Source: Dehalococcoidia bacterium
GTDB lineage: Bacteria > Chloroflexota > Dehalococcoidia > Lucifugimonadales > UBA2985
Assembly: GCA_965221925.1 (NCBI GenBank)
Contig: OZ244924.1
Coordinates: forward strand, 169,609-233,608
Direction of reading: 5' to 3'
DNA: 64,000 nucleotides
Made by a program: the position numbers and the translations under genes. This document shows, piece by piece, positions 53,738 to 63,739 of the stretch; within the stretch, counting starts at the first letter, position 1; every line of letters starts with the position of its first letter. A model generated the notes under the pieces. The model saw only the letters and a program-made list of their open reading frames with translations. It searched no databases and was not told the origin of the DNA.

Positions 53738-54281
53738 GCGGGAGGCCGGCGCGTCCAAGCGGCTCCCGGAACGGCGCCCCGGAGGCTGGACGCCCGTTGG
53801 AGTTAAGAGTGCAGGATGCGCGACATCCGACGGTGCAACGCCTGTACGCCCGGAGAATGATACAGGGCAAAGGCTCTGGCAAGCCCCCAGGCCGCCAGAG
53901 ACGCGTCGGGTGGCCTGGGTTGGCGGAAATGGCGAGTTGTTGAGAGGGTCGCGGTGGAGAGCATCTCTCCCTGTCGAGGGGTTTCTGCGCTGCGGCAGTC
54001 TAACCAGGGTTATTCCAGGAAGCCCGCCTCGCTTTGCCAGGGATTACAGCGTCACCTCCCACCGAAAAGTTCGCAGTACGGTACACTCTGGCCCACCAGG
54101 CTGGACAAAATCAAGAACCTTCGTTTTGAGGTTCAAGCTGGCGGTGTAGGCGCAGGGCTGTCGGATGCGCCTCAGTCGCCCGTCCAACCTCTCTGGCAGA
54201 GCCTTTACTACACCCAGCCAACTCCGCCGGGGTCTGGGTGTCATGTATGTTTTCTCAATGCAGACAATGCGTAAGTCCGTG

Positions 54282-54310
54282 TTGACTTTGTGGAATGCCA
54301 CGGGTAGAAT
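54282..54310 (+). promoter_or_regulatory. candidate promoter of the Type I R-M operon (leaderless-type geometry)
   Basis: TTGACT, a 17-nt spacer, then TAGAAT. The -10 ends 6 nt before the ATG at 54317. Confidence 0.4.
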
Positions 54311-54316
54311 AGAGCC

Positions 54317-54922
54317 ATGGCTCTCATTGAGGCGCTAGCAGACGTATACCAGGGCCTTGCCCGGGCTGGGCGGGGGGCTGGAGCACGGGCCGGGGACTGG
54401 AAGTTGCGGATTGTAGAGAGCGGCGACTTGCACGACGACGGGTGGCTGGACATAGACGGCCTCCGAGAGATTGGCGTTGCCCAAGGTCTCCGCACCGAGC
54501 GGCACCTGCTGCGCCCCTTCGACGTGCTGGTGACGGCGCGCTCCGGGTCCGTCCAGGTCGCGCTTGTGCCGCCCGGCGTGTCTAGGTCGGTTGCAGGCAT
54601 AACGCTGCTGGTAACGCGGCCCAAGGAGCCGGAATCCGGCATGGGTCATTGGCTATGGTACTTCCTGACCTCGGCCTCTGGCCGAGAGCAACTAGCCAGG
54701 CGCGTGACCGTCACCGCCACTCTCAGGTCTCTGTCCGCCAAAAGCCTTGGAGAGATCGAGGTCCCTGTGCCTTCTGCTCGTGAGCTCGACGTGGTGGCGC
54801 GTTTGGTGGAGGCGTCAGAGGCGGCGTATGCGTCGGCAATCGAAGCCGCCCGGCTACGCCGTGAGACCCTGCATGACTCTGTGGCGCACGAAATCGGTCG
54901 AAGCGTCGTAACGGCAACCTAA
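54317..54922 (+). CDS. half-size HsdS-like specificity protein (single target-recognition domain + one conserved helix)
   Basis: LRPFDVLVTARSGSVQVALVP...AGITLLVTRPKEP...HWLWYFLTSASGREQLARRVTVTATLRSLSAKSLGEIEVPVP... follows the layout of one HsdS TRD. It lies 12 nt upstream of hsdM, with an AAAGGAG RBS between them. Confidence 0.6.
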   Translation: MALIEALADVYQGLARAGRGAGARAGDWKLRIVESGDLHDDGWLDIDGLREIGVAQGLRTERHLLRPFDVLVTARSGSVQVALVPPGVSRSVAGITLLVTRPKEPESGMGHWLWYFLTSASGREQLARRVTVTATLRSLSAKSLGEIEVPVPSARELDVVARLVEASEAAYASAIEAARLRRETLHDSVAHEIGRSVVTAT

Positions 54923-54934
54923 AGGAGAAAGCAG

Positions 54935-56453
<1,519 letters not shown>

Positions 56454-56467
<14 letters not shown>

Positions 56468-56654
56468 AGACGCCATCCAGCTGGTGGAGCGGGACGGCTG
56501 GCGGCTGACAAGGACACGCGGGAGCCATCGCCAATACCACCATTTTGAGAAACGAGGAACCGTTACCATCCCAGGCCATCTTGGCAGCGACTTGCCGCGC
56601 GGCCTATGGCTCAATATCTTGAGACAGGCAGGACTTAGGGAGGGAAAACTATGA
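56454..56654 (+). CDS. hicA: type II toxin HicA (mRNA interferase)
   Basis: The 66-aa product reads ...LVERDGWRLTRTRGSHRQYHH..KRGTVTIPGH...DLPRGLWLNILRQAGL, the HicA pattern. It overlaps the hsdM end by 14 nt. Confidence 0.85.
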
Positions 56655-56998
56655 AGCTAACGTATGCCGTCGTCTTTGAGCGAACCCCCAACAACTACGG
56701 GGCCTATGCGCCTGACGTGCCGGGCTGCGTGAGCGTCGGGGCAACCTGGGAAGAGATGCAAGCAAATATACGTGAAGCCCTCGCCTTTCACATTGAGGGA
56801 ATGGTGGAGAACGGTGAAACGCTCCCTGATCCGCGGATGTCAGTCAGGGATGCTATGGCCTACCATAGCAAATCCTTTGATGAATCTGTCCTTGAAGGCC
56901 TTGCCGAATTCGATGAATCTACGGCTGACCTACCGACAACCGTTCAGATGGTCGAAATTGAGGTCGCCCTGTCACAAGTGGCAACAAGTGGCTTGTAA
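56651..56998 (+). CDS. hicB: type II antitoxin HicB
   Basis: YAVVFERTPNNYGAYAPDVPGCVSVGATWEEMQANIREALAFHIEGMVENGETLPDP is the HicB N-terminal fold signature. There is a 4-nt overlap with hicA. Confidence 0.85.
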   Translation: MKLTYAVVFERTPNNYGAYAPDVPGCVSVGATWEEMQANIREALAFHIEGMVENGETLPDPRMSVRDAMAYHSKSFDESVLEGLAEFDESTADLPTTVQMVEIEVALSQVATSGL

Positions 56999-57001
56999 GA
57001 T

Positions 57002-57373
57002 GTGTTATCAGTGGGCAGGTTGATGAGAGGCAAGACACAGATCTCGGAGGCCATGACCATCGAGGTAACTGACGACACCTTGACCGCCGAACTTTCCGAC
57101 GGTCGTACCGTGTCGGTCCCGTTGTCCTGGTATCCCAGGCTCATTCACGCCACACCGGAGGAGCGCAAGAACTGGCGGCTGATCGGCGCTGGCGAGGGTG
57201 TCCACTGGCCCGACCTGGATGAAGACATCAGCGTGGAGATGCTGCTGGGCGGCTGGCCCTCGGGAGAAAGCCAGAGCTCCTTTAAACGCTGGCTGGAAGC
57301 AAAGCGGGCAGGGCTTCCCGTGACCATTCACGAGATAGACCCCGCCGCGAGAGAAGAGACTGAAGAGGGCTGA
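57002..57373 (+). CDS. DUF2442 domain-containing protein
   Basis: ...LTAELSDGRTVSVPLSWYPRLIHATPEERKNWRLIGAGEGVHWPDLDEDISVEMLL is the DUF2442 pattern. The start is uncertain (GTG 57002, ATG 57023 or ATG 57053). The stop overlaps the hsdS ATG (TGATG). Confidence 0.75.
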   Translation: MLSVGRLMRGKTQISEAMTIEVTDDTLTAELSDGRTVSVPLSWYPRLIHATPEERKNWRLIGAGEGVHWPDLDEDISVEMLLGGWPSGESQSSFKRWLEAKRAGLPVTIHEIDPAAREETEEG

Positions 57374-58629
57374 TGAGGCGCTTAGAAGAAGATGGGACGA
57401 TACCCGACGGCTGGAGCATAGTGCGCCTGGGGCAGGTGGCGGACGTATCATTCAGCAGTGTCGACAAGAAGACGACCGATGGTGAGGTGCCAGTTGAACT
57501 CTGCAACTATACCGATGTCTTCTACAACCGCCGGATTCGAGTCGGAATGAAGCTGATGACCGCCACCGCTACTCCGGTTGAACGAGACACATGGAGCTTG
57601 AAGAAGGGCGATGTTCTGTTTACCAAGGACTCGGAAACACCGGATGAGATCGGAGTCCCGTCCTACGTCTCCGACGACATGCCCAACGTGCTGTGCGGCT
57701 ATCACCTGGGATTGGCCCGGTCATCTTCCAGCTTGGCATATGGCGCATTTCTAGCTAGAGCTCTGGCTTCCCGTGCCTCTGCGCAAGAGTTTTCGAGAAT
57801 CGCTAACGGCGTAACGCGATTCGGGCTGACCTTAGAAGCTACACGCAATCTCCCCATCCCCCTCCCGCCCCTCCGGGAGCAGCGGGCCATCGCCGCCGTG
57901 CTGGACTCCATTGACGACGCCATTGAGAACGCCGAGGCCGTCATCGCGGCCACTGAGCGCCTGCGCGACGCTCTGCTGCACGAGCTGCTCACTCGCGGGA
58001 TGCCGGGGTGGCATTCGGAGTGGAAGGAGGCGCCGGGCCTGGGGACGATCCCGGCGGGGTGGGAGGTGGTGCGGCTGGGGGAGGTGGCGACCATGAGCCA
58101 AGGCGGCACCCCGCGGAAAAACAGGCTTGAATATTGGGGCGGCCATATTCCCTTCGTAACTGGTGCTGACTTGATGGGGTTCCGCATAGGGAGATTGAAC
58201 GCACGCTCCTTCCTGAGCGCCGAGGGCCTTTACTCGGGTGCCACAGCAGTTTGCAAACCTGGAGACTTGTTGCTTGCTACGCGGACGACAGTCGGCCTTG
58301 CTGGTATAGCTACAGAGATGATGGGGGCAAGCCAGGATATAACCTGCCTCGTTGCAAATCGTCGAGTCGATGCGGAGTATCTGTGCAGATCCTTGGTACG
58401 ACTAGCTTCATCATTGCAGAAGAAGTCTCGTGGCACCACTATTCAAGGAATCACAAGAGAGGACGTGGCTTCTCTCCAATTTCCGCTCCCACCTCTCCCC
58501 GAACAGCGGGCCATCGCCACCGTGCTGGACAGCGTGGATGATGCTGTTGAAAAGGCGCGAACGAATATGCTAAAATCCTTGAAAGAATCAACCGCGGACG
58601 CGCTGCTGACGGGTTGGGTGCGTGTGTAA
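57373..58629 (+). CDS. hsdS: Type I restriction-modification system specificity subunit (two TRDs)
   Basis: Two TRDs are each followed by the conserved spacer helix: PLPPLREQRAIAAVLDSIDDAIE and PLPPLPEQRAIATVLDSVDDAVE. The TRD2 DNA is visibly A/T-richer. Confidence 0.9.
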   Translation: MRRLEEDGTIPDGWSIVRLGQVADVSFSSVDKKTTDGEVPVELCNYTDVFYNRRIRVGMKLMTATATPVERDTWSLKKGDVLFTKDSETPDEIGVPSYVSDDMPNVLCGYHLGLARSSSSLAYGAFLARALASRASAQEFSRIANGVTRFGLTLEATRNLPIPLPPLREQRAIAAVLDSIDDAIENAEAVIAATERLRDALLHELLTRGMPGWHSEWKEAPGLGTIPAGWEVVRLGEVATMSQGGTPRKNRLEYWGGHIPFVTGADLMGFRIGRLNARSFLSAEGLYSGATAVCKPGDLLLATRTTVGLAGIATEMMGASQDITCLVANRRVDAEYLCRSLVRLASSLQKKSRGTTIQGITREDVASLQFPLPPLPEQRAIATVLDSVDDAVEKARTNMLKSLKESTADALLTGWVRV

Positions 58630-58645
58630 GTGGGAGAGGGAATTC

Positions 58646-59551
58646 ATGACCAATAAAGAGGAATCTCAACTCGTTGTCACTGACCTGCCTATTACGTTAT
58701 ACCTGAATCAACAAGTGACGTTCGATATCCTTGCAGCACTAGAGGACGGCTTCTCACGCTTCTCAACCGTGCAAACTACATCCTCTGGAGAGAAACTGAC
58801 AGAAGTTTCTGGGGAAGCACAGGTTGGAGCCAACCTCACTTTGTTTGGAATGAAATTCGGTGGACGTAGGTCTCGACAAACAGGGCAGGCGCAGAATGAG
58901 AGCACTACGGAAGAAATTATCCACACACCGGCATCGTTGTTCGCTCGCCTGCGAAGAGATTTGCGTAGTCGCGGCCTGGTGACCGATCTATTAGACCCAT
59001 CCGGCCTTGGCGGGGTTCGCCCCAGCGACTTTGTGGAATTTGAAGCGACTCTTCAGCGAAATAAAGTTCTGGTTCAACTATCGACACTTGCCGAACTTGT
59101 TCCAATAATGAGCGCCTTTGAAGAACCGTCCGTATCGAAGGCGTCCCGCTCGCGCAAGCAAAACAAGAACACGAACTCCGCGATGCTTACACAGGTCAAC
59201 TCGTTGCTACACGCATTAACAACAGGCGGATCCCAAGACCTGATCTCAAAGGTGGGTCAAATCAATGTGGTCATCACCACTGAGCAGCAATACTTCATTG
59301 ATCCCACTATGAATGACATCATTGACGGAACGTTTCGCGTTTTCGGTAAGGCTAGCCGCGTCATTCCAGAACCCAACGACGAGAACATCGACCTTCTGAG
59401 GAAGGCCCCGCTTGGACAATTCAAATCCCTGTTGCCCACCATTCAAGAGGCAATGAGTCAATTTGCTCATGAGCTGGGTTATTCTGGAGATTCATCCACT
59501 GAGATTCAGGGGCCAGCAATCCAGGTTATCCCGATCGCGATATTTTCGTAA
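58646..59551 (+). CDS. hypothetical protein of unknown function embedded between hsdS and hsdR
   Basis: The ATG at 58646 lies 5 nt after GGGAGAGGG. The track ORF starts at 58622, inside the hsdS stop region. The product is 301 aa. A central S/K/R/N-rich linker (SVSKASRSRKQNKNTNSAM) separates two halves. No TM helix or catalytic motif is recognised. The stop overlaps the hsdR ATG (TAATG), and the sequence is strongly A/T-richer than the flanking hsd genes. Confidence 0.7.
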   Translation: MTNKEESQLVVTDLPITLYLNQQVTFDILAALEDGFSRFSTVQTTSSGEKLTEVSGEAQVGANLTLFGMKFGGRRSRQTGQAQNESTTEEIIHTPASLFARLRRDLRSRGLVTDLLDPSGLGGVRPSDFVEFEATLQRNKVLVQLSTLAELVPIMSAFEEPSVSKASRSRKQNKNTNSAMLTQVNSLLHALTTGGSQDLISKVGQINVVITTEQQYFIDPTMNDIIDGTFRVFGKASRVIPEPNDENIDLLRKAPLGQFKSLLPTIQEAMSQFAHELGYSGDSSTEIQGPAIQVIPIAIFS

Positions 59552-62500
59552 TGACAATGGTTACCCCCGCCAAGCTCAACGAGTTCAACCACGCCGAGGA
59601 CCCGGCGCGCCGGTTGCTGGAGCGGTTGGGGTGGAGCTATGTGCACCGCGAGGCGCTGGCGGCGGAGCGCGGGGACGAGCGGGAGGCGCTGCTGAGGAGG
59701 CGACTGAAGGCGGCGCTGGGGCGACTGAACGAGTGGATGACGGAGGAGCAGGCGGAGCGCGCCGTCTTCGATCTGGAGCACGTCAACGCCACCGGCATGG
59801 CCCGCAACCAGGCTGTCCACGAGTACCTGACCTACGGGATGCCCCTGACCGTTGACGGGCCGCGCGGAAGAGGCTCGCGCACCGTCCGCTTCTTCGACTT
59901 CGACCACCCGGAGGGCGGACTCAACGAGTTCGTCGTCACCACGCAGTTCCGGGTCCGCCGGGGCAGCGAGCGGGATGGGGCCGAGGACGACGAGCGCATG
60001 GTCATCCCCGACCTGGCGCTGTTCGTCAACGGCGTTCCGCTGGTGGTGATGGAAGCGAAGTCGCCGTCGCTGCTGTACGTGTGGAAATCCCAGGCGGTGC
60101 GCCAGCTCCTGCGCTACCAGGAGGCGGGGCCGGAGTGGCACGGCGCGGGCGCGCCGGAGCTGTTCCACTACAACCTGCTATGCGTCGCGCACTGTGGGGC
60201 CGCAGCAGCCTACGCCGCCCTCGGCGCGCCGGAGAACGCCTATTTCGAGTGGAAGTCGGTACTGCCGTACTCGGACGACGAGGTGCGGCAGCGCTTCGGC
60301 GTTGAGCCTCAGGGGCAGGCGCAACTCATTGTTGGGCTGCTGTCGCCGTCGGCGCTGCTGGACGTTCTGCGCGACTACGTGGTCTACGAGCCGGAGCGGG
60401 GGCGGCTGGTGAAGAAGCTGCCCCGCTACCAGCAGTACCGCGCCGTCCGCGCGGCGGCGGAGCGGATGCTGTCGGGCCGGAAGCCGGAGGAGCGTGGCGG
60501 GGTGATCTGGCACACCCAGGGTTCTGGCAAGTCGCTGACGATGCTGTGGTTGGCGACGAAGCTGCGCCGCGAGCCGCGCTTGGGCAATCCCACCATCGTC
60601 GTGGTCACCGACCGCAGGCAACTCGACCGGCAGATCACCGGAACCTTCGAGCGCTGCGGCTTCCCCGCGCCGGAGCAGGCTCCGAGCACACGCGAGCTGC
60701 GCCGGTTGCTCAGCACAGGAGCGGGCCGGACGGTGATGACCACCATTCAGAAGTTCGAGGAGGCGTTGACCGCCCCCGAGGGCCGTCTCGACGTGCTCAA
60801 CGCCTCGGAGAACGTCATCGTCATGGTGGATGAGGCCCACCGCACGCAGTACGGCATTCTCGGCGCGCGCATGTCGGACGCCCTGCCCAACGCAACGCTT
60901 GTCGGCTTCACCGGCACGCCTATAGACAAGGACTTCAAGCGCAGCACCATGCGGCGTTTCGGCTCTCTCATCGACGCCTACACTATCCCGCAGTCGGTGG
61001 CCGATGGCGTGACAGTACCCATCTGGTACGAGGCGCGGCTGCCGGAGCTGGCCATTGAGGGGCCGGAGACGCTGGACAAGCTGTTCGAGGCGATGTTCGG
61101 CGACGAGCCGCCCGCGGTCCAGATGCAGATTCGCCGCCGCTACGCCAACAAGGAGACGGTCGCCGAGGCGGAGCGTCGCATCGAGATGATCGCCTTGGAC
61201 ATCGCCGACCACTTCAAGGCGAAGGTGCGCCCCAACGGCTTCAAGGCGCAGGTCGTCGCGCCAAGCCGGGCCGCCGCGCTGCGCTACGCCGAGCGCCTGA
61301 ACAGCTTCGGCCTGCGCGCCTATCCCGTCATCACGACGACGCCCAACGACGGCCCGGAGTTCAGGGCGGCCCGCGAGATCGACCAGGAGCAGGTCGTCAA
61401 CGCCTTCGTCGATCCGACGGGGGAGCCGGAGGCGCTGGTCGTGGTGGACATGCTGCTCACCGGCTTCGACGCGCCCGTGGAGCAGGCGCTCTACTTGGAC
61501 CGGCCTCTTCGGGAGCACGGCCTGCTTCAGGCTATCGCCCGCGTGAACCGGCGATTCTCTCACGAGCAGGACGGCGTGCCCACCGAGAAGACGCACGGTC
61601 TCGTCGTCGACTACCACGGCGTCTCCCGGAACCTGGAGGAGGCTCTCTCGACGTTCGAGTGGCCGGACGTGCAGGACACGATGCGCGAGCTGGACGAGGA
61701 CCCTGCGCCGGTCATCGAGGCGGCCGCCGTCCAGACGGAGTCTCACTTCAGGGGGCGCGACCTGGGGGATATCTGGGCGTGCGTCAGCGTCTTCGCGCCG
61801 GACGCTTCGACCGAGGGCAACTTCAAGGCCGACCTGTTCGAGCGGTTCAACGCGGACTACCGCCGGTTCTCACGTCTCATGGACCGTTTCCTGCCCAACC
61901 CGCGCTCGCTCCCTTACGTGAATCGCCTAGCCCGGCTCACGGAGATTCGGGCCTACGTCCGGGCCCAGTTCCTGCGTGAGGACGCCGGCGTGAACTGGAC
62001 CGAGATCGGGGCAAAGGTCAAGAAGCTGGTGGACGAGCGCATAGGCGCCAATGTCCGCGAGTTGATGAGGCCGGTCTCCATACTCGACCGGGACTTCGAA
62101 CAGAAGATCGCCGCCCTCCCGCACGACGAGGCGCGCGCATCGATCATGGAGCACGCCATTCGCGCTCATATTCACGAACGCCTCACCGACAATCCCGTTT
62201 TCTACGAGCGGCTCTCGGAGCGGCTGACGCGCATCATCGAAGACCTTCGCAACCGGCTGATTGACTCAGCCGAGGCGTGCCGGCGTCTGGCAGTCCTGCG
62301 GCATCAGGTGCAGAGCGAGGCCGACGTCGCCGCCGTGCATGGCCTGTCGCCGGTGTCCTTCGCCATATACGAGCTGCTTGATGGCCGCTCGGAGAATCCA
62401 GTTCCCGATGCGGCCGTGCGCGAGGACCAGACTCCGTACCGGACACACTTCGATGAGGAGACCAAGCGCGTTGCGCAGAAGGTGGAGTCCATGGTCGACG

Positions 62501-62664
62501 GCCACAAGGCCGTGGTCGACTGGCAATCGAACCTGGAGATCCAGCGGGAGATGCGCCGCGACATCAAGCGCGAGCTGAGAGATACCGGCGACTACACCGA
62601 AGAGCGGTTGGAGGAGTTGGCTAGTAAGATCGTCGAGTTGGCCCGCCGGAGGAGTCGGGGGTGA
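59551..62664 (+). CDS. hsdR: Type I restriction endonuclease subunit R
   Basis: The N-terminal PD-ExK nuclease motif is PDLALFVNGVPLVVMEAKSP. Helicase motif I is HTQGSGKSLTM and motif II is MVDEAHRTQ. SF2 motifs continue to QAIARVNR. The ORF is 1037 aa. Confidence 0.95.
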   Translation: MTMVTPAKLNEFNHAEDPARRLLERLGWSYVHREALAAERGDEREALLRRRLKAALGRLNEWMTEEQAERAVFDLEHVNATGMARNQAVHEYLTYGMPLTVDGPRGRGSRTVRFFDFDHPEGGLNEFVVTTQFRVRRGSERDGAEDDERMVIPDLALFVNGVPLVVMEAKSPSLLYVWKSQAVRQLLRYQEAGPEWHGAGAPELFHYNLLCVAHCGAAAAYAALGAPENAYFEWKSVLPYSDDEVRQRFGVEPQGQAQLIVGLLSPSALLDVLRDYVVYEPERGRLVKKLPRYQQYRAVRAAAERMLSGRKPEERGGVIWHTQGSGKSLTMLWLATKLRREPRLGNPTIVVVTDRRQLDRQITGTFERCGFPAPEQAPSTRELRRLLSTGAGRTVMTTIQKFEEALTAPEGRLDVLNASENVIVMVDEAHRTQYGILGARMSDALPNATLVGFTGTPIDKDFKRSTMRRFGSLIDAYTIPQSVADGVTVPIWYEARLPELAIEGPETLDKLFEAMFGDEPPAVQMQIRRRYANKETVAEAERRIEMIALDIADHFKAKVRPNGFKAQVVAPSRAAALRYAERLNSFGLRAYPVITTTPNDGPEFRAAREIDQEQVVNAFVDPTGEPEALVVVDMLLTGFDAPVEQALYLDRPLREHGLLQAIARVNRRFSHEQDGVPTEKTHGLVVDYHGVSRNLEEALSTFEWPDVQDTMRELDEDPAPVIEAAAVQTESHFRGRDLGDIWACVSVFAPDASTEGNFKADLFERFNADYRRFSRLMDRFLPNPRSLPYVNRLARLTEIRAYVRAQFLREDAGVNWTEIGAKVKKLVDERIGANVRELMRPVSILDRDFEQKIAALPHDEARASIMEHAIRAHIHERLTDNPVFYERLSERLTRIIEDLRNRLIDSAEACRRLAVLRHQVQSEADVAAVHGLSPVSFAIYELLDGRSENPVPDAAVREDQTPYRTHFDEETKRVAQKVESMVDGHKAVVDWQSNLEIQREMRRDIKRELRDTGDYTEERLEELASKIVELARRRSRG

Positions 62665-63389
62665 ACGAACGGGGTCGTATCCGCTTCGGCAACACGACCA
62701 TCGAATACGAGGTCCGTCGCAGCGAACGGCGCAGAAAGACCGTGCAGATCACTGTGGACGGCGGCGGCGTGCAGGTCGCTGCGCCCATGACAACGACGGA
62801 CGACGACCTGCGGGCTATCGTGCGGAAGCGGGCGCCCTGGATCCTTGGCCGTGCGTCGGGGGCGATGCTGGAGGCTGCGCCGAAGCGCTTCGTCAGCGGT
62901 GAGACGCTGCCGTACCTGGGCCGCAACGTCCGCATGATCGTCGAGTCTGCGGTCGTGCGGTCGCCTGAGATCCGCTTCGATCACTGGCGCTTCCGGGTCG
63001 CCGTGCCGCAGGGTCTCAATGGTAGTGAACGCTACGAGTCGATTCGCCGCAGTATTGTCGGGTGGTATAGGGATCGCGCCGCCGCTCGGCTGTCGGATGT
63101 TGTTGAACGCTGGTGGCCCCGGCTGGGCAGGGGAGAGAGGTCGCAGATACTCGTCCGCGACCAGCGTCAACGCTGGGGAAGCTGCGCGCCGGACGGCACG
63201 TTGCGCTTCAACTGGCGCGCAATGATGCTGGAGCCTGCTCTCATCGAGTACGTCGTCGTCCACGAGTTGGCGCACCTGACCCATCGGAACCACTCGATGG
63301 ACTTCTGGGGCTTGGTGGCCAAGGCGATGCCAGACGCGCAGCAGCGGCGCCAGCGTCTGCGGGAGGCCGGGCGGGCGCTTCCCCTGTGA
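62661..63389 (+). CDS. YgjP-like (DUF45/M48-type, SprT/WLM-like) zinc metallopeptidase
   Basis: The GTG start overlaps the hsdR stop (GTGA). The C-terminal HExxH block is VVHELAHLTHRNHSMDFW. Confidence 0.85.
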   Translation: MNERGRIRFGNTTIEYEVRRSERRRKTVQITVDGGGVQVAAPMTTTDDDLRAIVRKRAPWILGRASGAMLEAAPKRFVSGETLPYLGRNVRMIVESAVVRSPEIRFDHWRFRVAVPQGLNGSERYESIRRSIVGWYRDRAAARLSDVVERWWPRLGRGERSQILVRDQRQRWGSCAPDGTLRFNWRAMMLEPALIEYVVVHELAHLTHRNHSMDFWGLVAKAMPDAQQRRQRLREAGRALPL

Positions 63390-63739
63390 CGCTCCATCGC
63401 TGGATGCCTCGCTGTGCTCATCCGCACTGCGTTATCGGCCAGGCCGCCTTCTGCAGGCGTCGAACACTGCGCAGGACTGGTAGACTCGGCCGGTGGCGCT
63501 CTCAGTCCGACAACTGCTCCACCACCGCAGCCGGCTGCCCGGACCCTCGAATACGAAACTGATTAGGGTCAGATAGGTGTCGGACAAGCGATCTGGTCAG
63601 GGCCGTACCTGCTCCGCCGTTTTCGTGCAGTCTGGCGGCCCCGCGCCGACCGGCTCGGCCTGCTGGCCCTGCTCCAAGCAGAGCGCCCATTAGGAGAGGA
63701 CTAAGCAGCTTCCGCCTTCGGTTGCGTCAACATGGTGGC

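What the first reader, a model, noticed from the sequence alone, without database searches (positions are those of the whole stretch)
58646..59551. Unknown low-GC 301-aa gene wedged, with translational coupling, between hsdS and hsdR: candidate novel defence effector
Seen:
- The ATG at 58646 follows a GGGAGAGGG Shine-Dalgarno sequence, 16 nt after the hsdS stop. Its TAA overlaps the hsdR ATG (TAATG).
- Hand counts of single 60-nt lines give 26/60 G+C inside the gene (58681-58740) and 48/60 just inside hsdR (59641-59700). The cassette is therefore compositionally foreign.
- The protein has two halves joined by an S/K/R/N-rich linker. It has no TM helix, no P-loop, and no HExxH, HEPN Rx4-6H, PD-ExK or HNH motif that I can recognise.

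Established: genes in exactly this position in Type I operons are often abortive-infection or anti-anti-restriction modules. An example is PrrC, which the Type I enzyme holds latent.

Inference: this is a latent effector or sensor that monitors the R-M complex, and I could not assign it to any family by eye.
Basis: partly seen in the sequence, partly recalled or inferred. Interest (0 to 1): 0.7.

Follow-up and report, generated by a model that had tools for sequence, protein, structure and literature searches.

The report
DUF6414 defence-type cargo gene in hsd operon
The gene is real and conserved, and it belongs to the uncharacterised family DUF6414, which includes a part of the Dodola anti-phage system; it fills a slot between hsdS and hsdR that in related genomes holds many different anti-phage effector genes, so it is most likely a stand-alone defence gene of unknown mechanism.

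Summary

The protein can be assigned to a family. It is a full-length member of Pfam DUF6414 (E=5e-31), the family reported for one component of the two-gene Dodola system. It lacks Dodola's ClpB-like partner and is not hit by PADLOC's DolA or PDC-M37A models.

The gene is under purifying selection (dN/dS 0.18-0.26). It is lower in GC than its flanks in all 39 loci examined and is almost absent from phages and plasmids.

Fourteen of about 48 loci have it directly upstream of hsdR, in at least two unrelated Type I lineages. Two more follow a Type IIG/L enzyme and one flanks another Type I operon. Most other copies stand alone.

A search seeded with HsdR shows that the hsdS-hsdR gap of this operon family is a hypervariable cargo slot. 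It holds HEPN, TIR, OLD/GajA-like, DUF4917, ApeA and other PADLOC candidates. DUF6414 fills it in 1 of 22 loci.

Best reading: an interchangeable, autonomous, Abi-type defence cargo gene. A PrrC-like dependence on the R-M complex is possible but is weakened by these results. A confident AF2 model (pTM 0.81) has no significant structural match. Mechanism unknown.

The parts
54282..54310 (+). Promoter-like site (TTGACT-17-TAGAAT) just upstream of the first gene of the operon
   Evidence: Consensus scan. This is a pattern match only; sigma-70 rules may not hold in Chloroflexota.
54317..54922 (+). Half-size HsdS-like ORF (201 aa, one TRD), the first gene of the operon
   Evidence: No Pfam hit. It gives weak PADLOC Specificity_I and mad5 hits (E~1e-8). 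It is conserved at 39-87% identity in orthologous operons.
54935..56467 (+). hsdM (Type I methyltransferase)
   Evidence: Pfam N6_Mtase 5e-95 and HsdM_N 2e-25.
56454..56998 (+). hicA-hicB toxin-antitoxin pair, cargo in the hsdM-hsdS slot
   Evidence: Pfam HicA_toxin 1e-19 and HicB_lk_antitox 3e-14. It is present in only some orthologous operons.
57002..57373 (+). DUF2442 gene, cargo in the hsdM-hsdS slot
   Evidence: Pfam DUF2442 2e-22.
57373..58629 (+). hsdS with two TRDs; its conserved repeats lie at 57849-57932 and 58473-58556
   Evidence: Pfam Methylase_S, two stretches. Internal 84-nt direct repeat, 75% identical.
58547..58576 (+). Promoter-like site (TTGAAA-18-TAAAAT with TG) inside the 3' end of hsdS, about 70 nt before the DUF6414 ATG
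   Evidence: Consensus scan. Pattern match only.
58632..58640 (+). Shine-Dalgarno-like GGGAGAGGG, 5 nt before the ATG
   Evidence: Sequence.
58646..59551 (+). DUF6414 gene (301 aa), the finding. Residues ~13-158 form an N-terminal alpha/beta part with a conserved, low-confidence loop at 42-86. Residues 159-181 are a basic S/K/R/N linker. Residues ~195-301 form a beta-barrel with OB-like strand order.
   Evidence: Pfam PF19952, 108.8 bits, covering residues 15-300 against 2-283/283 of the model. 757 related clusters. dN/dS 0.18-0.26. AF2 pLDDT 83.3, pTM 0.81. Motifs.
59551..62664 (+). hsdR; its ATG overlaps the DUF6414 stop (TAATG)
   Evidence: Pfam HSDR_N, SWI2_SNF2, ResIII, T1R_D3-like and T1RH-like_C. 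Junction.
62661..63389 (+). YgjP-like metallopeptidase gene overlapping the hsdR stop; a constant companion of hsdR in this operon family
   Evidence: Pfam YgjP-like 4e-53. It follows hsdR in nearly all loci where the downstream DNA is readable, down to about 30% HsdR identity.

Best explanation
The gene encodes a solo member of the DUF6414 family. It is a horizontally exchanged, self-sufficient defence (abortive-infection-type) cargo gene.

It sits in the variable slot between hsdS and hsdR of a Chloroflexota Type I R-M operon. There it is co-transcribed and translationally coupled with hsdR, but it does not depend on the R-M enzyme.

Cassette turnover is probably driven by homologous recombination between the conserved 3' repeat of hsdS and the 5' end of hsdR.

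How the protein acts is inferred, not shown. It has no recognisable catalytic motif. I propose that the C-terminal OB-like barrel binds a phage-derived cue (nucleic acid or protein). I propose that the N-terminal domain then deploys its invariant but flexible loop (residues 58-73, consensus G-x-I-G-x-S-F-A-L-L-G-V-x-L-G-G, alternating large hydrophobic and small residues between polar flanks). That loop would serve oligomerisation, membrane perturbation, or docking onto a partner.

Confidence that it is an autonomous defence-type cargo gene is about 0.6. Confidence in the specific sensor/loop mechanism is about 0.2.
For: Shown:
1. Full-length DUF6414 match. The family is reported as one component of Dodola, a system active against phage SPP1 according to PMC11514479. 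10 of 130 family representatives weakly hit PADLOC DolA, and 11 of 130 hit the embedded candidate PDC-M37A.
2. An HsdR-seeded search, unbiased with respect to DUF6414, shows the hsdS-hsdR gap is a cargo slot in 19 of 22 orthologous operons. Cargo found: DUF3644 HEPN/PDC-S19, TIR/PDC-S35, OLD/GajA-like, DUF4917/PDC-S21, PDC-S31, PDC-M14A/B, Ymh-HEPN/PD-Lambda-3_B and ApeA/PDC-S58. DUF6414 is there in only one.
3. The gene also occurs alone, next to TA modules, Type IIG enzymes, STAND, GmrSD, PRTase-CE, integrases and IS elements, or as a single insertion between housekeeping genes. No partner recurs among 143 flanking genes.
4. Embedded and solo copies are interspersed in the tree. HsdR identity and DUF6414 identity are incongruent: L012 85% vs 50%, L005 84% vs 86%. 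dS of DUF6414 between the window and L005 (0.28) is below that of hsdR (0.49) and hsdM (0.68).
5. GC is lower than the flanks in 39 of 39 loci, mean -0.097.
6. Purifying selection.
7. No tblastn match in 50,697 phage or 72,556 plasmid records, and one locus in IMG/VR.
8. Nucleotide similarity of the window to L005 and L104 begins in the hsdS 3' conserved repeat and runs through DUF6414 into hsdR.

Bearing on mechanism:
- Confident AF2 model with a low-confidence but conserved loop at 42-86.
- Strand order b1-b2-b3-alpha-b4-b5 in the C-terminal part, and repeated weak OB-fold hits.
- Three relatives carry N-terminal multi-TM extensions.
Against: - No experimental datum exists for this subfamily.
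- The window protein is not detected by any PADLOC, NCBIfam or PHROGs model.
- Dodola itself needs a ClpB-like partner, which is absent here. A solo protein may therefore lack an effector.
- Several solo copies lie among housekeeping genes with no defence neighbour.
- The OB assignment rests on Foldseek hits of probability <=0.33.
- The hydrophobic loop is too short for a TM helix, and no TM segment is predicted.
- Adjacency to R-M enzymes is far above chance, which leaves room for a functional coupling that this explanation denies.
Confidence: 0.6

Rival explanations
1. PrrC-like guard. The protein binds the Type I enzyme, through HsdS/HsdM or HsdR, and is kept latent by it. It is released as a toxic effector when a phage anti-restriction protein disables the enzyme.
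For: - It has the same position as prrC, between hsdS and hsdR, and is translationally coupled to hsdR. PrrC is described as almost exclusively Type I-embedded.
- The position recurs in at least two unrelated Type I lineages: the window's family, and L040/L030 with 30% HsdR and 40% HsdM identity.
- Two gene calls run the HsdS C-terminus into DUF6414.
- It lies directly downstream of Type IIG/L enzymes, whose C-terminal part is the target-recognition domain (MmeI_TRD hit in L111; general knowledge for the Eco57I-like enzyme), in L007 and L111, and beside another Type I operon in L108.
Against: - Most relatives have no R-M gene within 6-10 kb.
- There is no separate hsd-specific clade.
- The same slot holds about ten unrelated effector families, and two orthologous operons have no cargo.
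- The protein has none of PrrC's defining domains.
Confidence: 0.15
2. Accessory or regulatory subunit of the restriction enzyme. Examples would be an assembly factor, a restriction-alleviation factor, or a DNA- or ssDNA-binding factor that tunes HsdR. It would act possibly together with the downstream YgjP-like peptidase.
For: - The TAATG coupling suggests co-production with HsdR.
- The C-terminal barrel is possibly OB-like.
- The family's known partner in Dodola is a ClpB-like unfoldase. From general knowledge, HsdR is controlled by Clp-dependent proteolysis in E. coli.
Against: - It is dispensable in 21 of 22 orthologous operons found through HsdR.
- It occurs far from any R-M genes.
- It evolves by cassette replacement rather than with HsdR.
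Confidence: 0.08
3. Non-defence mobile cargo. This would be a selfish or addiction-type gene, or a gene serving a mobile element, that lands in recombination-prone sites without any anti-phage role.
For: - Low GC everywhere.
- Neighbours include IS elements, integrases, serine recombinases and Replic_Relax genes.
- Single-gene insertions occur in housekeeping regions.
Against: - No recombinase, transposase or toxin-antitoxin signature, and no paired small gene.
- It is essentially absent from plasmid and phage records.
- It shares its slot with bona fide defence effector families.
- Related families are listed as defence or defence candidates.
Confidence: 0.12
4. Not a real gene: a chance ORF in a low-GC spacer.
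For: None beyond the atypical composition.
Against: Pfam E=5e-31. 757 homologous clusters. dN/dS 0.18-0.26. AF2 pTM 0.81.
Confidence: 0.01

Closest known systems
Dodola system, DUF6414 component (DolA in PADLOC) with a ClpB-like ATPase partner
   Same: - Same Pfam family, according to the review that cites Millman 2022.
- 10 of 130 relatives give weak PADLOC DolA hits.
- The non-ATPase Dodola protein is described as a two-domain protein with only weak DNA/RNA-binding structural hits, much like the model here.
   Different: - There is no ClpB-like gene in the operon or among 143 neighbours of related loci.
- The window protein and ten diverse relatives do not hit the DolA model at E<=1.
- Here the gene is solo or R-M-embedded.
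PrrC anticodon nuclease of the E. coli prr (EcoprrI) locus
   Same: It is embedded in a Type I operon. From general knowledge, the gene order there is hsdM-hsdS-prrC-hsdR, so the position between hsdS and hsdR is the same.
   Different: No NTPase P-loop and no nuclease motif, no sequence or fold relationship, and not restricted to Type I operons.
Embedded defence genes (Payne et al. 2024 'guilt-by-embedding' PDC/HEC candidates; TgvAB in V. cholerae VPI-2)
   Same: It is a gene of unknown function nested inside a Type I R-M operon. The alternative occupants of the very same slot are PDC-S19, S21, S31, S35, S58 and M14. PDC-M37A is a distant relative of the family.
   Different: This subfamily is not covered by the PADLOC v2 models. 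It is a single gene, whereas PDC-M37 is a two-gene cassette.
OB-fold nucleic-acid-binding domains (SSB, class IIb aaRS N-domains, Stn1/Ten1)
   Same: The C-terminal 105 residues have the b1-b2-b3-alpha-b4-b5 order. These proteins recur among the top Foldseek hits in two searches.
   Different: All hits have E>=0.3 and probability <=0.33. There is no sequence similarity. The resemblance is a lead only.

Membership tests
Pfam DUF6414 (PF19952) | Full-length match to the family HMM above the gathering score | tested here: met
   108.8 bits against a cut-off of 25, E=5.3e-31, residues 15-300 on model positions 2-283 of 283.
Pfam DUF6414 (PF19952) | Family-wide conserved motifs present (YLNQxxVFD, VHTPxSLFxxLR, GxFVEF, DGxFRVxGKVxRV, INLLRKT, GPAxQVIPIAIF) | tested here: met
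   Column statistics on 130 representatives. The window protein carries the consensus residue at nearly all columns conserved at 90% or more; the exception is S127, where 90% have G.
Dodola (DolA + DolB) | Match to the PADLOC DolA model | tested here: not met
   No PADLOC hit at E<=1 for the window protein or for ten diverse relatives. Only 10 of 130 representatives hit, best E=2.4e-4.
Dodola (DolA + DolB) | Adjacent ClpB-like AAA+ ATPase gene | tested here: not met
   The neighbours are hsdS and hsdR. No Clp/AAA_2 family appears among the 25 commonest Pfam families of 143 flanking genes from 25 loci.
Dodola (DolA + DolB) | Anti-phage phenotype | not testable with these tools
   Needs expression and plaque assays.
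PrrC-type Type I-embedded anticodon nuclease | Gene located between hsdS and hsdR | tested here: met
PrrC-type Type I-embedded anticodon nuclease | N-terminal ABC-type NTPase domain with a P-loop | tested here: not met
   No GxxxxGK[ST] motif and no ATPase Pfam hit.
PrrC-type Type I-embedded anticodon nuclease | C-terminal nuclease motif (R/H catalytic residues) | tested here: not met
   No R-x4-6-H motif. The protein has only 3 His, of which only H93 is conserved.
PrrC-type Type I-embedded anticodon nuclease | Kept latent by physical association with the Type I enzyme | not testable with these tools
   Needs co-purification or multimer modelling.
PADLOC PDC-M37 (embedded two-gene candidate) | Match to PDC-M37A and presence of the second cassette gene | tested here: not met
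   No hit for the window protein; 11 of 130 relatives hit weakly. The cassette is FAM_01269>>FAM_01309. No second unknown gene lies next to the window gene.
Type I R-M operon (host of the cargo) | hsdM, hsdS and hsdR all present with complete domain sets | tested here: met
OB-fold | Five-stranded barrel with a helix between strands 3 and 4, and a significant structural match | tested here: inconclusive
   The topology fits. The best OB-type Foldseek hits have E 0.44-5 and probability <=0.33.

The most novel reading that the evidence does not exclude
DUF6414 proteins are a new-fold class of 'R-M guards'. They would dock on the target-recognition module of Type I and Type IIG/L enzymes, sense its inactivation or phage interference, and kill or arrest the cell through their conserved glycine/hydrophobic loop, for example by oligomeric membrane insertion. 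Solo copies would guard R-M systems encoded elsewhere in the genome.
Probability: 0.12. Interest if true: 0.8.

Novelty: new variant of a known kind. Interest (0 to 1): 0.45.

Why it matters
DUF6414 has no known mechanism, even in Dodola. A solo subfamily that current defence-finder models miss would have two uses. It would give a minimal one-protein system for working out what the domain does. It would also add defence content in Chloroflexota, a phylum in which this protein and most of its close relatives went undetected by the defence models used here.

The broader result concerns the operon family. Its hsdS-hsdR gap, bounded by conserved recombination anchors, is a high-turnover slot carrying at least ten different effector families. 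That makes it a compact natural catalogue for defence-gene discovery, including several slot occupants with no match at all.

Tried and rejected
- PADLOC, NCBIfam and PHROGs scans of the protein gave no hit.
- Foldseek of two AF2 models against PDB and BFVD gave nothing below E=0.3. A profile search of PDB sequences gave 0 hits at E<=10.
- tRNA and Rfam scans around the operon found nothing.
- tblastn against phage and plasmid collections found no match. An IMG/VR scan found one locus.
- An exact-sequence look-up of the window protein was not on record.
- The Millman 2022 preprint text held here does not contain 'Dodola', so the DUF6414-Dodola link rests on a later review and on weak DolA-model hits.
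- HsdS-DUF6414 'fusions' (P0122, P0164) were considered as Rosetta-stone evidence. I rejected them as such. They contain only the last ~50-70 residues of HsdS, and one is a fragment, so they look like gene calls that run through. They show adjacency only.
- A PD-(D/E)xK reading of D128/E131 was rejected because only E131 is conserved.
- A repeat search for island boundaries found only short matches that look like chance.
Full report
**Observation.**
- It runs 58646-59551 on the + strand and encodes 301 aa.
- The hsdS stop (58627-58629) is followed by a 16-nt spacer GTGGGAGAGGGAATTC and then the ATG. The stop overlaps the hsdR ATG as TAATG.
- The two hand counts, 26/60 and 48/60 G+C, are correct.
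- Gene-wide GC is 0.497 (GC3 0.52), against 0.671 (GC3 0.89) for hsdR and 0.658 for hsdM.
- The S/K/R/N linker (residues 159-181) is present, and P-loop, HExxH, R-x4-6-H and HNH-like motifs and TM helices are absent.
- An in-frame GTG at 58622 exists. Close homologues of 300-303 aa start at the same MTNKEESQ, so the ATG is the likely start.

**Operon.** All genes are on the + strand.

| Coordinates | Gene |
|---|---|
| 54317-54922 | half-size HsdS-like ORF |
| 54935-56467 | hsdM |
| 56454-56998 | hicA/hicB |
| 57002-57373 | DUF2442 |
| 57373-58629 | hsdS |
| 58646-59551 | the gene in question |
| 59551-62664 | hsdR |
| 62661-63389 | YgjP-like metallopeptidase |

The conserved core (hsdM, hsdR, ygjP) has 66-67% GC. 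The variable parts (hicAB, hsdS TRD2, the gene in question) have 50-57%. Promoter-like matches lie before the first gene (54282-54310) and inside the 3' end of hsdS (58547-58576). These are pattern matches only.

**What the protein is.** It can be assigned to a family: it is a full-length DUF6414 (PF19952) protein, 108.8 bits, E=5e-31.
- A review citing Millman 2022 states that Dodola consists of a DUF6414 protein plus a ClpB-related protein. Dodola is reported active against SPP1, and its non-ATPase protein is described as a two-domain protein with only weak DNA/RNA-binding structural hits.
- The window protein is nevertheless not a Dodola component. It gives no PADLOC hit at E<=1, and neither do ten diverse relatives.
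- Only 10 of 130 family representatives weakly hit DolA (best 2.4e-4), and 11 of 130 hit PDC-M37A. PDC-M37 is a two-gene 'guilt-by-embedding' candidate.
- NCBIfam and PHROGs give nothing.
- The family is modest in size: 757 clusters at 50% identity with E<=1e-3, out of 1.84 billion representatives.

**It is a functional gene.**
- dN/dS against the two nearest orthologues is 0.26 and 0.18, similar to hsdR and ygjP.
- Conservation over 130 representatives defines these motifs: YLNQxxVFD (19-27), E[RK]VHTPxSLFxxLR (90-103), GxFVEF (127-132), DGxFRVxGKVxRV (227-239), INLLRKT (248-254) and GPAxQVIPIAIF (289-300).
- There is also a loop at 58-73 with alternating large hydrophobic and small residues (GxIGxSFALLGVxLGG), flanked by S/T/acidic and basic/polar stretches.

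**Structure.** With a 130-sequence alignment, AF2 gives pLDDT 83.3 and pTM 0.81. Only residues 42-86 have low confidence, and these are the conserved loop.
- Foldseek finds nothing significant in PDB or BFVD; the best E is 0.31. A profile search of PDB sequences finds nothing.
- The C-terminal ~105 residues have the strand order b1-b2-b3-alpha-b4-b5. OB-fold proteins (SSB, Asn/Asp/Lys-tRNA synthetase N-domains, Stn1/Ten1, PriB) recur among the weak hits.
- I treat 'OB-like' as a lead, not a result.

**Context of relatives.** A pattern scan of one genome per species returned 39 loci, mostly Dehalococcoidia and other Chloroflexota MAGs.
- Twelve have the window's layout, halfS-hsdM-[cargo]-hsdS-DUF6414-hsdR-ygjP. 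L030 has hsdS-X-DUF6414. L104 adds another.
- L040 and L030 belong to a distant Type I lineage (HsdM 40%, HsdR 30% identity), so the association arose more than once.
- In two further loci the gene lies directly downstream of a Type IIG/L enzyme: Eco57I-like in L007 and MmeI-like in L111. In L108 it flanks another Type I operon.
- All other loci have no R-M neighbour. The gene sits beside TA pairs, STAND NTPases, UvrD-type helicases, GmrSD, PRTase-CE, integrases or IS elements, or as a lone insertion between housekeeping genes such as hisF|dapA and relA.
- No partner family recurs: the most frequent is found in 4 of 143 flanking genes. No ClpB-like gene appears.
- Embedded and solo copies are interspersed in an NJ tree.

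**The decisive control.** I searched metagenome contigs with the window's HsdR, which does not bias towards DUF6414.
- 22 orthologous operons (HsdR 57-78% identical) had both hsdS and the start of hsdR readable. Of these, 2 have no gap, 1 (L069) carries DUF6414, and the other 19 carry unrelated genes in exactly this slot.

| Occupant of the slot | PADLOC match | Loci |
|---|---|---|
| DUF3644 HEPN | PDC-S19 | L049, L069, L070 |
| CAP12/Pycsar-type TIR protein | PDC-S35 | L052, L053 |
| OLD/GajA-like ATPase-TOPRIM | GajA, Old | L058, L072 |
| DUF4917 | PDC-S21 | L060, L067 |
| weak DUF2971 match (below cut-off) | PDC-S31 | L044 |
| no Pfam hit | PDC-M14A | L054, L061, L063, L076 |
| no Pfam hit | PDC-M14B-like | L046 |
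| Ymh-type HEPN | PD-Lambda-3_B | L048 |
| ApeA HEPN | PDC-S58 | L064 |

L061 has no detectable hsdS and is therefore outside the 22; it is listed because the same protein lies directly upstream of its hsdR.

- L069 carries both DUF3644 and DUF6414.
- In more distant Type I relatives (HsdR 30-39%) the gap is usually absent.
- DUF6414-seeded loci add Fic, DUF4062, AbiJ-like, OLD+PIN, DUF3800 and an IS element as cargo elsewhere in the operon.
- So the hsdS-hsdR gap of this operon family is a high-turnover defence-cargo slot, and DUF6414 is one interchangeable occupant.

**Exchange.**
- HsdR and DUF6414 identities are incongruent: L012 is 85% vs 50%, L005 is 84% vs 86%, L014 is 81% vs 48%.
- Between the window and L005, dS of DUF6414 (0.28) is lower than that of hsdR (0.49) and hsdM (0.68).
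- Nucleotide similarity of the window to L005 and L104 starts inside the conserved 3' repeat of hsdS (58473-58556, a copy of 57849-57932) and runs through the cargo into hsdR. This offers homologous anchors for cassette replacement, which is my inference.
- The operon as a unit (about 54093-63540) is ~85% identical to L104 while the flanks differ. In L104 it is followed by Replic_Relax, PIN and a large serine recombinase.
- DUF6414 genes have lower GC than their flanks in 39 of 39 loci, mean -0.097.
- The family is essentially absent from phage and plasmid records and from IMG/VR. This argues against a phage anti-restriction origin.

**Interpretation.** The evidence best supports an autonomous, horizontally exchanged defence-type cargo gene, confidence about 0.6.
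- The PrrC-like guard idea is not excluded. Adjacency to R-M enzymes (17 of about 48 loci, in several clades) is far above chance, and the gene repeatedly follows the part of an R-M system that encodes target recognition.
- Against it: there is no hsd-specific clade, solo copies are frequent, and the slot is interchangeable. I give it about 0.15.
- An accessory role in restriction (about 0.08) fits the coupling to hsdR, but the gene is dispensable in orthologous operons.
- A non-defence selfish cargo (about 0.12) fits the composition and the lone insertions, but not the company the gene keeps in the slot.

**Mechanism.** This is inference only.
- No catalytic signature is conserved. The invariant polar residues are N21, Q22, D27, H93, T94, S97, R103, E131, D227, K235 and R252.
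- I propose a sensor (the C-terminal barrel) plus an effector or docking element (the flexible Gly/hydrophobic loop).
- Three relatives with N-terminal multi-TM extensions show that the domain can work at the membrane.
- Confidence in this mechanism is about 0.2.

**Novelty.** The gene family is known (Pfam, Dodola), and so is the concept of defence genes embedded in Type I operons.
- New here: a solo, R-M-embedded DUF6414 subfamily in Chloroflexota that current defence models do not detect.
- Also new: the description of this operon family's hsdS-hsdR gap as a multi-family cargo slot.
- I rate it a new variant of a known kind, interest 0.45.

Noticed in passing
L044-L076 (HsdR-seeded loci), the gap between hsdS and hsdR; equivalent to window 58630-59550: In this operon family the gap is a hypervariable slot holding at least ten unrelated gene families (HEPN, TIR, OLD-like, DUF4917, ApeA and others). 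Several occupants have no Pfam or PADLOC hit (for example L047 1885-2616); L057 4507-5337 has only a marginal PDC-S51 hit.
   Followed up: partly
window 56454-57373: There is a second cargo slot between hsdM and hsdS. Here it holds hicA, hicB and DUF2442. Orthologous operons hold DUF4160+DUF2442, Fic/DOC, DUF4062, DUF3800 or an IS element instead.
   Followed up: partly
window 54317-54922: A half-size (single-TRD) HsdS-like ORF precedes hsdM. It is conserved (39-87% identity) in orthologous operons, yet has no Pfam hit and only weak Specificity_I and MADS mad5 matches. Its role is unknown.
   Followed up: no
window 62661-63389: A YgjP-like metallopeptidase gene overlaps the hsdR stop. It follows hsdR in nearly all loci with readable downstream DNA, even at ~30% HsdR identity. 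It behaves as a core component rather than cargo.
   Followed up: no
L040 8719-9960 and L030 1870-3111: In the distant Type I lineage a 413-aa protein lies between hsdS and DUF6414. It has no Pfam or PDB hit, and the two copies are 63% identical. Its near-invariant C-terminus contains a PD-(D/E)xK-like D...ECK motif. It may form a two-gene cassette with DUF6414.
   Followed up: partly
P0217, P0237, P0168 (family representatives): These DUF6414 domains are fused to N-terminal extensions of 85-155 residues with several hydrophobic TM-like segments.
   Followed up: no
P0122, P0164: These gene calls join the last ~50-70 residues of HsdS in frame to DUF6414. They are probably run-through or fragment calls, but they show further hsdS-DUF6414 adjacency.
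   Followed up: partly
window 58547-58576: A promoter-like TTGAAA-18-TAAAAT with an extended -10 TG lies inside the 3' end of hsdS. It could give the cargo and hsdR their own transcript.
   Followed up: no
window 54093 and 63540: Nucleotide similarity (~85%) to L104 starts and stops at these points (to L005 it spans only 54623-63390), while the flanks differ. The whole 9.4-kb operon therefore behaves as a transferable unit. No convincing terminal repeats were found.
   Followed up: partly
L005-L043: DUF6414 genes have lower GC than their surroundings in 39 of 39 loci, in genomes ranging from 33% to 69% GC. This persistent bias is not explained.
   Followed up: partly
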